DNA of 64,000 bases from a virus, in IMG/VR virus record IMGVR_UViG_3300032236_000803, positions 1 to 64,000 of that record. One strand, given 5' to 3'. The position numbers and the translations under genes are program-made. The notes beneath the pieces are model-generated. The model was given only the letters and a program-made list of their open reading frames with translations, had not been told where the DNA came from and did no database searches. Positions 4,866-6,830 of this stretch are shown one piece after another (within the stretch, counting starts at the first letter, position 1; each line of letters starts with the position of its first letter).

Positions 4866-4918
4866 ACGGGGTGTATTTTTTTAGAGTTGCAGTCTATTTT
4901 TATTGCCGTAAACACCCC
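4866..4918 (-). ncRNA. Structured RNA motif copy 3 (short form with anticodon-arm-like hairpin, loop CTGCAAC)
   Basis: GGGGTGT-TTACGGCAA ... TAGA-CTGCAAC-TCTA ... ACACCCC-GT; intergenic, just downstream of the DUF2828 gene. Confidence 0.75.
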
Positions 4919-4925
4919 AATTCCA

Positions 4926-6359
4926 TTAGAAATCGTATCTTGGATTCATAATAGCTTGCATCATAATTCCTTCAGGAGTAAAGGAAGACGTATCAGCCTT
5001 CAGAACAGCCTTCAGAATAGCAGGACTAAAACCAGATACCAACCCAACGCCAGAAGCATCATAACGAACAGGAACATTATCGTTAGAGTTAAGATTCCAG
5101 AATACAATTGCAGGCATAGAATATCCGGCATTTTCGTACATACGTTTAACCATCTGATACGCGCTATCGTCAAAATTAGTACAATAATTAAACTGCATAT
5201 CCGATAGAATCAATAGCATTTCTGGCATTTCTTCGTTAGGAACATTAGAATTAATAGCAGTTTCCAGAATCAAATCAAGAGCGCCATACAAATTTGTACT
5301 CATACCCCACTTAGACTTAATCATTTGTTCGCAACGATCAACTACGTTTCCGGTAAGACGAAGAATTTCTGGTGTCGTAGAGAATGTTACGAACAAATCC
5401 TTGAATTTACCAGTGTTCTTTTCAGATAGATATAACCCAAGAGATACTGAAACGTCAAGACAAGTAACTGAATTATTCTTTCCAGCAGGACAAGTCATTG
5501 ACCCGGAAACGTCTACTAAAGGTAGAATATTCGAATCACCAACAAAGTTCTCAAGAGCATTCCACTGATTAACAATCAGATCAGTTTCAGTTTTACCATA
5601 AGAATTACTTACGCCATAAGGGCTGATGATACCCTTTAGAACATCATAAGGATAAACTGCTCCAGCATTAACCTTAACAGAAGTATCGCCAGAGTTCAAC
5701 TTATTAACATAGTTAGAATAACCTACTGGATCATGCTTGTTAAACGCCTTCTTGTAACGAGCAGAAGCCAAAGAAGGAACATGACTGTAGTTAATATCTT
5801 CCCATGAATTCGAACACATCTTAGTTTCTACAACTTCGGTATTAGAAGCCAGAAACTTACGATACTGACGAGGAGTCATATTCCAATAAGTCATAATCTC
5901 AGTAGCAAGCGCAGACTTAGATGACTTTTCTCTTGGAAGCCACTTAGCAACAAGTTGATTACCTGAGCGAATACCTTCAAACAATGAATCAAATGCTTTA
6001 TTCTTGAAAGTCTTAGTTTCGAAAACCAATAGATCATCCCAACGACCAATTTCTGGAATTTTGTCCCAGATACGATTCAAGATTTCTGGATTCTTCTTTT
6101 CAAGATAGACAAGAATATCTCTGAACAGTTTACGTTCACCAGCACCACCACGAACATCGCGAGTCCAAAGAGCAATACGAGTAGCTAATTCTGGATCTTC
6201 TACAAAAGCAGAAGAGAATTGCGGAATGATATCTTTACCACGACTTGCGCCGATTTTAAAGAAAAGATTAGTTAATTCCTGACCAGAACTTTTAAAGGCT
6301 TTCATACCATTTTCAGTTCTAGTAATACGATTATCGACAGCATAAGCAAACGAATTCAT
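4926..6359 (-). CDS. DUF2828 + vWA protein (Ro60/TROVE-like architecture, candidate RNA-binding protein)
   Basis: RDVRGGAGER, GRWDDL, AKWLPREK, YSHVPSLA, MIDAS DVSGSM, SDMQF, IVFWNL and LVSGFS motifs; start set at ATG 6359 behind a GAGG SD. Confidence 0.85.
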   Translation of the reverse strand: MNSFAYAVDNRITRTENGMKAFKSSGQELTNLFFKIGASRGKDIIPQFSSAFVEDPELATRIALWTRDVRGGAGERKLFRDILVYLEKKNPEILNRIWDKIPEIGRWDDLLVFETKTFKNKAFDSLFEGIRSGNQLVAKWLPREKSSKSALATEIMTYWNMTPRQYRKFLASNTEVVETKMCSNSWEDINYSHVPSLASARYKKAFNKHDPVGYSNYVNKLNSGDTSVKVNAGAVYPYDVLKGIISPYGVSNSYGKTETDLIVNQWNALENFVGDSNILPLVDVSGSMTCPAGKNNSVTCLDVSVSLGLYLSEKNTGKFKDLFVTFSTTPEILRLTGNVVDRCEQMIKSKWGMSTNLYGALDLILETAINSNVPNEEMPEMLLILSDMQFNYCTNFDDSAYQMVKRMYENAGYSMPAIVFWNLNSNDNVPVRYDASGVGLVSGFSPAILKAVLKADTSSFTPEGIMMQAIMNPRYDF

Positions 6360-6369
6360 AACATACCTC

Positions 6370-6432
6370 ACAGGTTTACACGGTTTTAGACAAATTTAAA
6401 GTTTGTTTATTATTTCTTGCGGAAATAAACCT
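6370..6432 (-). ncRNA. Structured RNA motif copy 4 (short form with anticodon-arm-like hairpin, loop CTTTAAA)
   Basis: AGGTTTAT-TTCCGCAA ... ACAAA-CTTTAAA-TTTGT ... GTAAACCT-GT; abuts the SD of the DUF2828 gene. Confidence 0.75.
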
Positions 6433-6438
6433 AATACA

Positions 6439-6628
6439 ACAGGATACATTTTTACGCGCTCTACCAATTGAGCTACCGTTCCATCAGAAGCATACTGTTA
6501 CAATAACTAGAATTGGGTTCAGGTGTTATCGCTAGTCAGGGTGCTCAATATGCTTTTGGTGGAACGGACTGGACTTGAACCAGTAACCACGACCTTACAC
6601 GGGTTAATATAATTGCAGAAAATATCCT
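6439..6628 (-). ncRNA. Structured RNA motif copy 5: circularly permuted tRNA mimic with CCA (Y-RNA/YrlA-like)
   Basis: In order: AGGATAT-TTTCTGCAA, ACC-CGTGTAA-GGTCG, T-arm ACTGG-TTCAAGT-CCAGT, CCGTTCC-ACCA, 74-nt insert, GGAACGG-TA, D-arm GCTC-AATTGGTA-GAGC, GTATCCT-GT. Confidence 0.85.
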
Positions 6629-6643
6629 AATAATTCAATCTAA

Positions 6644-6771
6644 GCTGGATGTGCTTTTTATAATTACAGCTGTCTTACCATTCGACTTCATCCCAATTTT
6701 ATTGGGAAGGACGGAATCGAACCGCCTTTCGCTGTTTGACTTTATATAAATTAAGTTGCAGTAAACATCCA
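6644..6771 (-). ncRNA. Structured RNA motif copy 6: permuted tRNA-elbow mimic (YrlA-like topology)
   Basis: In order: TGGATGT-TTACTGCAA, ACAGC, T-arm GGCGG-TTCGATT-CCGTC, closed acceptor hairpin TCCCAAT-AAA-ATTGGGA, D-arm GTC-GAATGGTAA-GAC, GCTGT, ACATCCA. Confidence 0.85.
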
Positions 6772-6778
6772 AATTTTA

Positions 6779-6830
6779 ACAGGAAGATTTTTTACTTACC
6801 AAAAGTATTTTAAATTGCTGAATTCTTCCT
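6779..6830 (-). ncRNA. Structured RNA motif copy 7 (short form, hairpin with 7-nt loop TTTGGTA)
   Basis: AGGAAGA-ATTCAGCAA ... TACT-TTTGGTA-AGTA ... TCTTCCT-GT. Confidence 0.75.

What the first reader, a model, noticed from the sequence alone, without database searches (positions are those of the whole stretch)
4866..6830. Short motif copies display isolated anticodon-arm-like hairpins (possible anticodon-nuclease decoys)
Each short copy holds one small hairpin flanked by A-rich linkers. Copy 3: TAGA-CTGCAAC-TCTA (C32 U33, GCA = Cys, A37). Copy 4: ACAAA-CTTTAAA-TTTGT (5 bp + 7 nt, C32 U33, UUA, A37 A38). Copy 7: TACT-TTTGGTA-AGTA (UGG = Pro; position 37 atypical). The copy 2 loop contains CTTGAAA (Ser-UGA-like, imperfect geometry). 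Long copies therefore carry the tRNA body and short copies the anticodon arm. Established: anti-phage effectors such as PrrC and RloC cut anticodon loops. Inference: this is a variable library of decoy or bait loops on a common handle.
Basis: partly seen in the sequence, partly recalled or inferred. Interest (0 to 1): 0.75.

Follow-up and report, generated by a model that had tools for sequence, protein, structure and literature searches.

The report
Anticodon-arm look-alikes on phage Y-like RNAs
The short repeats are small partner RNAs of a phage protein shaped like the RNA-surveillance protein Ro60; two of the four carry a weak hairpin built like a tRNA anticodon arm, a design that recurs well above chance in related phages, but a role as nuclease decoys is untested.

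Summary
The hairpins exist on the minus strand where stated. Three of four short copies have a stem of at least 4 bp closing a 7-nt loop that starts YU; 0 of 5000 shuffles reach this. They are thermodynamically marginal (-0.3 to -2.0 kcal/mol). Copy 7 fits a D-arm better, and copy 2 has no such hairpin.

All seven copies share a covarying closing helix followed by unpaired UWA-CNGCAA. They flank a 478-aa DUF2828 gene whose predicted fold matches Ro60/Rsr. The same handle lies beside this gene, on its strand, in 99 related loci and in Felixounavirus, cyanophage, mycobacteriophage, Listeria, Staphylococcus and Campylobacter phages. A covariance model gave 111 hits, all on the gene's strand.

Among 89 distinct short units in relatives, 21 have a 7-nt YU-NNN-R loop, mostly 5 bp plus CU-NNN-AA with varying triplets. 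Shuffles of a comparable set of 78 units gave about 0.6. However, 9-nt loops are commoner.

Best reading: these are YrlB-like minimal members of an uncatalogued Ro60/Y-RNA-type family that displays tRNA parts. The anticodon-arm resemblance is supported. The decoy function is speculation. This scan has reached the same reading on many other genomes.

The parts
6782..6829 (-). Short unit, copy 7: closing helix GGAAGA/UCUUCC, unpaired AUUCAGCAA, one hairpin, then a 3' UGUU tail
   Evidence: Regex scan of the genome; covariance model R1 47.3 bits (this copy was in the training set); orthologs in L001 and L002
6793..6807 (-). Copy 7 hairpin UACU/UUUGGUA/AGUA. It folds better as 5 bp plus loop UUGGU. 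It resembles a D-arm (4-bp stem, GG-UA in the loop) more than an anticodon arm.
   Evidence: the L002 ortholog has the 9-nt loop UUUUUGGUA
6373..6431 (-). Short unit, copy 4: GGUUUA/UAAACC helix plus UUUCCGCAA. It ends 10 nt before the start codon of the Ro60-like gene.
   Evidence: in most related loci a short unit ends about 10 nt before the start of the gene match
6390..6406 (-). Copy 4 hairpin ACAAA/CUUUAAA/UUUGU: 5 bp plus a 7-nt loop with C32, U33, A37 and A38. This is the best anticodon-arm look-alike in the window.
   Evidence: -0.4 kcal/mol; the class in relatives keeps CU...AA while the triplet varies, and 2 of 5 stem pairs change on both sides
4869..4917 (-). Short unit, copy 3, directly downstream of the Ro60-like gene: helix GGGUGU/ACACCC (7 bp if 4868-4918 is counted) plus UUACGGCAA
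   Evidence: orthologs at L001 5445-5501 and L002 4923-4977
4882..4896 (-). Copy 3 hairpin UAGA/CUGCAAC/UCUA: 4 bp plus a 7-nt loop. The loop repeats the handle word CNGCAA.
   Evidence: -0.3 kcal/mol; the loop CUGCAA(A/C) sits on three different stems in relatives
499..562 (-). Short unit, copy 2 (outside the stated interval): GGAUAG/CUAUCC plus UUACAGCAA. Its payload folds differently and CUUGAAA is not in a clean 7-nt loop. It overlaps the 3' end of a 53-aa Bfd-like ORF.
6442..6627 (-). Long unit, copy 5: handle, ACC/CGUGUAA/GGU hairpin, T-arm, acceptor strand with A-CCA, a long hairpin that extends the acceptor helix, acceptor 5' strand, D-arm, handle 3' strand (YrlA-like permuted tRNA body)
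   Evidence: Sequence reading; inverted repeat I2; weak permuted-tmRNA hit on the tRNA-like part
6647..6770 (-). Long unit, copy 6: handle plus a T-arm / closed acceptor / D-arm elbow mimic
   Evidence: fold z = -3.1; partial hit to the cyanobacterial tmRNA tRNA-like domain
1..77 (-). Long unit, copy 1: handle plus T-arm, cut off by the contig end
   Evidence: R1 partial hit at 28-72
4926..6362 (-). Gene for a 478-aa Ro60-fold protein (DUF2828 + DUF7788 vWA with a DVSGS MIDAS motif; PHROG 850 'RNA-binding protein'), the presumed partner of the RNAs
   Evidence: Pfam; PHROGs; AlphaFold2 model with pLDDT 76.8; the top 13 PDB fold matches are all Ro60/Rsr/TROVE

Best explanation
The short copies are the minimal, YrlB-like members of a family of small non-coding RNAs. 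This family partners the phage's Ro60-like ring protein, encoded at 4926-6362.

Each RNA has a constant handle: a 6-7 bp helix joining its 5' and 3' ends, immediately followed on the 5' side by unpaired UWA-CNGCAA, with a 3' UGU tail. I infer that this handle docks on the protein, as the terminal stem and adjacent CGAA-type motif of Y RNAs dock on Ro60.

The variable interior displays a piece of tRNA. Long copies display a T/acceptor/D elbow. Copies 4 and 3 display a small hairpin built like an anticodon arm (5 or 4 bp, 7-nt loop CU-NNN-A). Copy 7 displays a hairpin closer to a D-arm.

Also inferred: the protein-held RNAs present these tRNA parts to factors that recognise tRNA, such as modification enzymes, nucleases or an exoribonuclease like PNPase. 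In that way they would tether or occupy those factors during infection. The units are probably cut from one transcript together with the protein's mRNA.

Shown: the handle, its covariation, its linkage to the gene, the protein's predicted Ro60-type fold, and the statistical excess of anticodon-like loops. Inferred: binding, processing and the target of the displayed hairpins.
For: - Handle specificity in this genome: a strict scan of the 91-kb record finds the seven copies, all on the minus strand within 1-6830, and one stray match elsewhere.
- Linkage: all 12 close loci carry arrays of such units on the gene's strand, in 11 of them 4-6 units just upstream of the gene. The handle also lies beside the gene in Felixounavirus, cyanophage, mycobacteriophage, Campylobacter, Listeria and Staphylococcus phages.
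- Covariance model R1: 111 hits at E<=0.01 in 490 kb, 111 on the gene's strand and 0 on the other.
- A test based on the sequence motif alone: 66% of motif occurrences on the gene's strand have a closing complement, against 17% on the other strand.
- Closing helix: all 6 pairs change on both sides and 95.7% of cells are paired (the rows were chosen for pairing, so this is descriptive only).
- Protein: the top 13 PDB fold matches are Ro60/Rsr, including the Thermus phage phiLo Ro60.
- Known analogues: YrlA/YrlB (PMC4201824) and phiLo Yrl1/Yrl2 (PMC12135203) have the same plan, a 5'-3' stem next to an unpaired motif and a tRNA-like domain.
- Anticodon-like loops: 3 of 4 window copies, against 0 of 5000 shuffles; 14 of 78 against 0.56; 21 of 89, of which 17 have 5-bp stems.
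- Copy-4 class: CU and AA are invariant, the triplet varies, and the stem shows compensatory changes.
Against: - No binding, expression or processing data exist for this phage.
- The protein does not match Pfam TROVE even at E<=10.
- The handle motif is not the GNCGAA/CGAA of known Y RNAs, and no Rfam family matches.
- The hairpins are barely stable by nearest-neighbour rules.
- The commonest short-unit loop in relatives is 9 nt and lacks U33.
- Copies 2 and 7 do not fit an anticodon arm.
- The related sequences are not independent, so the shuffle statistics overstate significance.
Confidence: 0.62

Rival explanations
1. The short copies are decoys or baits for host anticodon nucleases of the PrrC/RloC type. 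Each displays a different anticodon loop on a common handle, to soak up or report the nuclease.
For: - Hairpins of 5 bp with a CU-NNN-AA loop recur on many different stems with varying triplets.
- Relatives carry acceptor-less tRNA bodies with full Lys-UUU-like and Thr-UGU-like anticodon arms. tRNA-Lys(UUU) is the classical PrrC target (established knowledge).
- The units sit in or next to phage tRNA clusters.
- An RtcB-type ligase gene lies 1.3 kb from the gene in a Listeria phage.
Against: - There is no test of cleavage or competition.
- The stems are AU-rich and marginally stable.
- The hairpins lack a tRNA body and would probably lack the base modifications that PrrC-type enzymes recognise (established knowledge).
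- The triplets include UUA, AUA and AAU, which are not normal bacterial anticodons.
- The commonest short-unit loop is 9 nt without U33.
- This 91-kb record holds no RtcB or Rnl-type ligase, although it is only about 55% complete.
Confidence: 0.12
2. The short copies are generic YrlB-like Y RNAs. Only the handle and the single-stranded A-rich linkers matter, for gating the ring or tethering PNPase. The anticodon-like shape of the hairpin would be an inherited remnant of the tRNA genes from which the family arose, with no role of its own.
For: - Long units are plainly tRNA-derived.
- Loop length drifts between orthologs: 7 against 9 nt for copy 7, and 7, 8 and 9 nt within the copy-4 class.
- The hairpins are weak.
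- Known bacterial species have a second Y RNA that is a simple hairpin (PMC4201824).
- phiLo Ro60 with its Yrl RNAs binds host PNPase (PMC12135203).
Against: A neutral remnant should not keep C32, U33, A37, A38 and a 5-bp stem while both the stem sequence and the triplet change.
Confidence: 0.2
3. The units that abut start codons are binding sites on the mRNA through which the Ro60-like protein regulates translation. Copy 4 lies before the Ro60-like gene, and copies 3 and 2 lie before the next genes. This does not exclude the other readings.
For: - Copy 4 ends 10 nt before the ATG, with the GAGG ribosome-binding site just after the helix.
- In most related loci the best model hit ends about 10 nt before the start of the gene match.
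- No terminator-like site lies between the units and the genes.
Against: - Many units lie in arrays or between tRNA genes, far from any start codon.
- In mycobacteriophage and Staphylococcus phages the units lie downstream of the gene.
- Nearness to the start is also expected if the units are simply co-transcribed with the gene and processed.
Confidence: 0.05
4. The hairpins are chance features of AU-rich spacers.
For: Each hairpin alone is weak, and the window's 7-nt loops were picked out by eye.
Against: 0 of 5000 shuffles match the window. The hairpins are conserved in orthologs, with compensatory stem changes. The enrichment holds across the family.
Confidence: 0.02

Closest known systems
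Bacterial and phage Ro60 (Rsr) with the Y RNAs YrlA/YrlB, Yrn1/Yrn2 and phiLo Yrl1/Yrl2 (Chen et al. 2014, PMC4201824; NAR 2025, PMC12135203)
   Same: - A ring-plus-vWA protein with the Ro60 fold.
- Several small RNAs encoded within a few kb on the same strand.
- Each RNA is closed by a 5'-3' stem with a conserved unpaired motif beside its 5' strand.
- At least one RNA carries a T / closed acceptor / D tRNA-like domain in the permuted order, and another is a simple hairpin.
- In M. smegmatis the RNAs are cut from one precursor located upstream of the gene.
   Different: - The protein belongs to Pfam DUF2828/DUF7788, not TROVE (no TROVE hit at E<=10), and is 11-15% identical to solved Ro60 proteins.
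- The motif is UWA-CNGCAA, not GNCGAAN0-1G/CGAA.
- There are up to 5-7 units per phage, in tight arrays that are often interleaved with tRNA genes.
- The cargo repertoire is wider: anticodon-arm-like hairpins, D-arm-like hairpins, acceptor-less tRNA bodies, and both circular permutations.
- No Rfam model matches.
tRNA anticodon stem-loop
   Same: Copy 4 and its class have a 5-bp stem and a 7-nt loop with C32, U33, A37 and A38 around a variable central triplet. Copy 3 has the same loop plan on a 4-bp stem.
   Different: - The stems are almost all A-U and barely stable.
- In the short units no tRNA body is attached.
- Some triplets are not natural anticodons.
- Loop length varies from 7 to 9 nt among orthologs.
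- Copy 7 has U at position 37 and GG in the loop, which is D-arm-like.
Class I RNAs of dictyostelid social amoebae (Kjellin et al. 2021, PMC7919456)
   Same: As described in that paper's text, they are about 60 nt long, with a short covarying stem joining the 5' and 3' ends. An unpaired 11-nt motif lies next to the 5' strand, with near-invariant C6, C9, A10 and A11, which fits C-A-G-C-A-A. The 5' G is invariant, the 3' end is C-UGU, and the rest is variable.
   Different: They are eukaryotic, transcribed from their own promoters, and reported to bind the RRM protein Rnp1A/CIBP.
Phage tRNAs that resist host tRNA-targeting defences (established knowledge)
   Same: They are phage-encoded, sit in tRNA clusters, and depend on features of the anticodon loop.
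   Different: Those are functional, chargeable tRNAs that replace cleaved host tRNAs. The units here have no free acceptor end, or no tRNA body at all, and carry a protein handle.

Membership tests
Ro60/Y RNA ribonucleoprotein (YrlA/YrlB type) | A Ro60-fold protein gene lies adjacent to the RNAs on the same strand | tested here: met
   AlphaFold2 model. Foldseek's top 13 PDB matches are all Ro60/Rsr/TROVE, E 2e-8 to 2e-4. The units flank the gene on its strand.
Ro60/Y RNA ribonucleoprotein (YrlA/YrlB type) | The protein matches the Pfam TROVE domain | tested here: not met
   Only DUF2828 and DUF7788 match, even at E<=10. phmmer against PDB sequences finds no Ro60.
Ro60/Y RNA ribonucleoprotein (YrlA/YrlB type) | A terminal 5'-3' stem with a conserved unpaired motif beside its 5' strand | tested here: met
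   Consensus of 191 distinct units; covarying helix; strand-specific model hits
Ro60/Y RNA ribonucleoprotein (YrlA/YrlB type) | The motif is GNCGAAN0-1G, or CGAA / GGUCCGA | tested here: not met
   The motif here is N-U-A-C-A-G-C-A-A. Compare PMC4201824 and PMC12135203.
Ro60/Y RNA ribonucleoprotein (YrlA/YrlB type) | At least one RNA has a T / closed acceptor / D tRNA-like domain | tested here: met
   Copies 5, 6 and 1 by sequence reading; partial hits to tmRNA tRNA-like domains
Ro60/Y RNA ribonucleoprotein (YrlA/YrlB type) | A match to a curated Rfam Y-RNA model | tested here: not met
   No Y-RNA family is reported for 4700-7000, even at E<=10, and none at gathering score in the whole window
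Ro60/Y RNA ribonucleoprotein (YrlA/YrlB type) | The RNA is physically bound by the protein | not testable with these tools
   This needs immunoprecipitation or a gel-shift assay
tRNA anticodon arm (mimic) | A 5-bp stem closing a 7-nt loop | tested here: inconclusive
   Copy 4 qualifies. Copies 3 and 7 have 4-bp stems, and copy 7 prefers 5 bp plus a 5-nt loop. Copy 2 does not qualify. In relatives, 17 of 21 signature hairpins have 5 bp, but 9-nt loops are commoner overall.
tRNA anticodon arm (mimic) | Y32, U33 and R37, usually with A38 | tested here: inconclusive
   Copies 3 and 4 meet this. Copy 7 has U37. Family-wide excess: 21 of 89 units found by the model; a comparable set gave 14 of 78 against 0.56 in shuffles.
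tRNA anticodon arm (mimic) | The hairpin forms stably on its own | tested here: not met
   Energies of -0.3 to -2.0 kcal/mol and pair probabilities of 0.29-0.44; family mean of -0.7 kcal/mol
Anticodon-nuclease decoy | The RNA is cleaved by an anticodon nuclease or competes for it | not testable with these tools
   This needs a biochemical or genetic assay
Dictyostelid Class I RNA | About 60 nt; a short terminal stem; an adjacent unpaired motif with C6, C9, A10 and A11; a 5' G; a 3' CUGU | tested here: inconclusive
   The features as worded in PMC7919456 fit the consensus. No amoebal sequence was compared here.

The most novel reading that the evidence does not exclude
A very widespread phage ribonucleoprotein, made of a DUF2828 Ro60-like ring and CAGCAA-handle RNAs, holds out a panel of anticodon-arm and other tRNA-part mimics. 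These would act as baits that trap, inhibit or sense host enzymes that cut or modify tRNA anticodon loops. That would be a protein-anchored RNA decoy system for counter-defence.
Probability: 0.12. Interest if true: 0.85.

Novelty: new variant of a known kind. Interest (0 to 1): 0.58.

Why it matters
What the tRNA-like parts of Y RNAs are for is still an open question. This protein family has hundreds of phage members (710 phage records, and at least 7990 metagenomic proteins with E<=1e-10). Here its partner RNAs appear to offer tRNA parts separately: elbow, anticodon arm and D-arm, all on one handle. That modularity makes the question testable, because one can ask which host or phage factor each module captures.

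If the anticodon-like modules engage anticodon nucleases or modification enzymes, this would be a new kind of phage counter-defence. Even if they do not, the handle defines an RNA family that I found in neither Rfam nor the papers I searched. It also gives the DUF2828 proteins a likely ligand.

Tried and rejected
- Rfam at gathering score and at E<=10 gave only weak hits to tmRNA tRNA-like domains on the long copies and nothing on the short ones. I considered a two-piece tmRNA and rejected it: 18.5 bits against a cut-off of 47, and no tag frame was sought.
- ARAGORN calls none of the units a tRNA.
- Tandem Repeats Finder and generic repeat finding do not pick up the family, because only about 15 nt are shared.
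- Terminators and attenuators: there are no terminator-like sites in 4300-7400, and promoter-like sites are at the chance level.
- CRISPR-like array: rejected. There is no constant repeat, and the closing helices covary instead.
- Continuing copy 1 across the contig ends: the ends do not join and there is no terminal repeat.
- The extra model hit at 18121-18184 (E = 0.09) lies at the start of a 702-aa ORF and was judged to be chance.
- RtcB and Rnl-type ligase genes are absent from this 91-kb record, which is only about 55% complete, so the absence means little.
- phmmer of the protein against PDB sequences found nothing; only the fold comparison shows the Ro60 relationship.
- The paper search for DUF2828 returned five unrelated papers. 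The Annual Review on bacterial Ro60 is not held, and the supplements of Chen et al. are not held.
- The loop CUGCAA as a second protein-binding word: 6 of 89 payloads against 1.1 expected, with a maximum of 6 in shuffles. This is suggestive only.
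Full report
**What is in the sequence.** Everything relevant lies on the minus strand. Reading that strand, seven units share one plan. Each has a 6-7 bp helix joining its two ends. Nine unpaired bases, W-U-W-C-N-G-C-A-A, follow directly after the 5' strand. Next come a variable interior, the 3' strand of the helix, and usually UGU.

A strict scan of the whole 91,190-bp record found six complete copies, all on the minus strand, and one stray 35-nt match elsewhere. 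The scan required GGNNNN, the motif, and a perfect closing complement. The complete copies lie at 499-562, 4869-4917, 6373-6431, 6442-6627, 6647-6770 and 6782-6829. A seventh copy at 1-77 is cut by the contig end.

Copies 1, 5 and 6 are long and hold a T-arm, a closed acceptor helix and a D-arm in permuted order.

**The quoted hairpins.** They are present exactly as written: copy 3 at 4882-4896, copy 4 at 6390-6406 and copy 7 at 6793-6807.

- Chance: three of four payloads have a stem of at least 4 bp closing a 7-nt loop that starts YU. None of 5000 dinucleotide shuffles reached three. With R37 also required, two of four qualify, P = 0.005.
- Stability: they are weak, at -0.3 and -0.4 kcal/mol for copies 3 and 4. 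Copy 7 is better drawn as 5 bp plus a 5-nt loop, at -2.0.
- Closing-pair probabilities are 0.29-0.44. Free folding keeps only the terminal helix with confidence.
- Copy 2 has no such hairpin.

**What the units belong to.** Five of the seven copies directly flank a 478-aa gene at 4926-6362.

- Pfam sees DUF2828 plus DUF7788 and no TROVE domain even at E<=10. PHROGs calls it 'RNA-binding protein'.
- An AlphaFold2 model (pLDDT 76.8, pTM 0.75) has as its top 13 PDB matches only Ro60/Rsr/TROVE structures. These are D. radiodurans Rsr, Thermus phage phiLo Ro60, and Xenopus and human Ro60.
- The protein has full-length relatives in 710 phage records, some annotated 'Ro-like RNA binding protein'. At least 7990 metagenomic proteins match at E<=1e-10.

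**The handle follows the gene.**

- All 12 close IMG/VR loci carry arrays of such units on the gene's strand. In 11 of them, 4-6 units about 10 nt apart lie just upstream of the gene.
- The handle also lies next to the gene in distant phages: Felixounavirus tootiki (interleaved with its tRNA cluster), cyanophage BUCT-ZZ01, mycobacteriophage BigCheese, and Campylobacter, Listeria and Staphylococcus phages.
- From 191 distinct arrayed units, the consensus is helix, N-U-A, C-A-G-C-A-A, then a 3' U-G-U-U-A-A tail.
- A covariance model built on short units gave 111 hits at E<=0.01 in 490 kb, all on the gene's strand. It also found units it was not trained on in the distant phages.
- A test using the sequence motif alone shows a closing complement for 66% of occurrences on the gene's strand, against 17% on the other.
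- The helix covaries at all six pairs. Because the rows had been chosen for pairing, I use that count only as description.

**Comparison with what is known.** Chen et al. 2014 (PMC4201824) described bacterial and phage Y RNAs encoded beside Ro60. These have a conserved unpaired motif (GNCGAAN0-1G) near the 5' end. YrlA carries a tRNA-like domain in the order V, T, closed acceptor, D. A second RNA, YrlB, is a simple hairpin. In M. smegmatis both are cut from one precursor upstream of the gene.

The 2025 phiLo study (PMC12135203) showed a phage Ro60 binding two such RNAs through a CGAA bulge next to the 5'-3' stem, and binding host PNPase. The window's system has the same architecture but a different protein family, a different motif and no Rfam match. 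I therefore treat it as a new variant of the Ro60/Y-RNA kind. The short copies are its YrlB-like members.

The text of Kjellin et al. 2021 (PMC7919456) describes RNAs of about 60 nt with a short covarying terminal stem. An adjacent unpaired 11-nt motif has near-invariant C6, C9, A10 and A11. The 5' G is invariant and the 3' end is CUGU. These features fit the consensus, but I compared no amoebal sequences.

**Testing the anticodon-arm claim in homologs.**

- Among 78 distinct short units, the best hairpin has a 9-nt loop in 30 and a 7-nt loop in 21. Fourteen have YU-NNN-R, against 0.56 (maximum 3) in 200 shuffled sets.
- Among 89 distinct units found by the covariance model, which knows nothing of the interior, 34 have 9-nt loops and 29 have 7-nt loops. 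Twenty-one have YU-NNN-R.
- Of those 21, 17 have 5-bp stems, on at least 12 different stem sequences. Nearly all loops read C-U-NNN-A-A, C or U. Most of the triplets differ: UGA, GUU, UGU, GGA, GUA, GAU, UCU, GCA, GAA, AUA, CGA, CAU, UAU.
- In the class that includes copy 4, CU and AA are invariant and the triplet varies. Two of the five stem pairs show A-U to U-A exchanges.

**Limits of the anticodon-arm claim.**

- The largest class of short units has the 9-nt loop A(A/C)GCAUAUC, without U33.
- The copy-4 class also has 8-nt and 9-nt members.
- The copy-7 ortholog in L002 has the 9-nt loop UUUUUGGUA. With its 4-bp stem and GG-UA, this hairpin looks more like a D-arm.
- The stems are 24% GC, with a mean energy of -0.7 kcal/mol.
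- Some triplets are not natural anticodons.
- The sequences are related to one another, so the shuffle counts are not probabilities.

**The split between body and arm is not clean.** Copy 5 has its own ACC/CGUGUAA/GGU hairpin. Relatives hold units in which the handle replaces the acceptor stem of an otherwise complete tRNA body, with Lys-UUU-like or Thr-UGU-like anticodon arms. Cyanophage BUCT-ZZ01 has tRNA bodies with the handle inserted in the anticodon stem. The family is better described as a common handle carrying interchangeable tRNA parts.

**Mechanism.**

- Shown: the handle, its linkage to the gene, the protein's predicted Ro60-type fold, and the excess of anticodon-like hairpins.
- Inferred from the Ro60/Y-RNA precedent: the protein holds the handle, and the interior is presented to factors that recognise tRNA. 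The units are processed from a transcript shared with the gene. In support, no terminator-like site was found, and in most related loci a short unit ends about 10 nt before the start of the gene match.
- Not addressed by any result here: whether the anticodon-like hairpins act as decoys for anticodon nucleases. I rate that at about 0.12.
- Alternatives: a remnant of tRNA ancestry with no role of its own (0.2) and a translational operator role for the start-proximal units (0.05, not exclusive).

**Earlier notes of this scan.** Notes from this scan show that the same system, including anticodon-like cargo, has been noted and followed up on many other genomes. Those follow-ups reached the same verdicts. 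My scores rest on the tests above.

Noticed in passing
L014 (Synechococcus phage BUCT-ZZ01) about 4085-4196 and 4210-4325: Two tRNA bodies run in normal order (acceptor, D-arm ... T-arm, acceptor, CCA). In each, the anticodon stem holds the handle closed by a small loop (3' strand-UGU, AAA, 5' strand, AUUCUGCAA). This is the circular permutation of the window's long copies. ARAGORN does not call either one a tRNA.
   Followed up: partly
L008 3572-3666; L012 (91-nt unit listed): In these units the handle replaces the acceptor stem of an otherwise complete tRNA body: D-arm, 5-bp anticodon stem with loop CUUUUAA (Lys-UUU-like) or CUUGUAA (Thr-UGU-like), variable loop and T-arm.
   Followed up: partly
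window 514-675 (-): A 53-aa ORF with a Bfd-like Cys pattern (MIVCIC ... QCGKC). Its last ~13 codons and stop codon overlap short unit copy 2.
   Followed up: no
window 6362-6431 (-), and about 10 nt upstream of the gene in most related loci: A short unit nearly always ends about 10 nt before the start codon of the Ro60-like gene, with the ribosome-binding site just after the helix. This could allow autoregulation, or it may simply reflect co-transcription.
   Followed up: partly
window 4882-4896 (-); L056, L092 and L098 units: The hairpin loop CUGCAA(A/C) repeats the handle word CNGCAA and sits on three different stems. It may be a second protein-binding site. For comparison, the phiLo paper's figure legend describes Yrl1 as having two hairpins and a conserved CGAA motif, and reports that Yrl1 and Yrl2 bind phiRo60 with distinct stoichiometries.
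   Followed up: partly
L017 (Listeria phage LMSP-25) 4811-5464: An RtcB-type 'tRNA-splicing ligase' gene lies 1.3 kb downstream of the DUF2828 gene. This echoes the bacterial rsr-yrlBA-rtcBA operon.
   Followed up: no
window 3559-4848 (-): Downstream of the Ro60-like gene, on the same strand, lie a 126-aa protein of unknown function, a macro-domain/phosphatase-like protein (PHROG 335) and a YqeY-like protein. A genuine tRNA-Asn gene lies at 1494-1569.
   Followed up: no
window 6442-6627 (-): Long copy 5 encodes the acceptor 3' strand followed by A-CCA and then a 22-bp imperfect hairpin that extends the acceptor helix. RNase P and 3' processing could release a two-piece, CCA-ended tRNA-like RNA, as reported for M. 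smegmatis YrlA.
   Followed up: no
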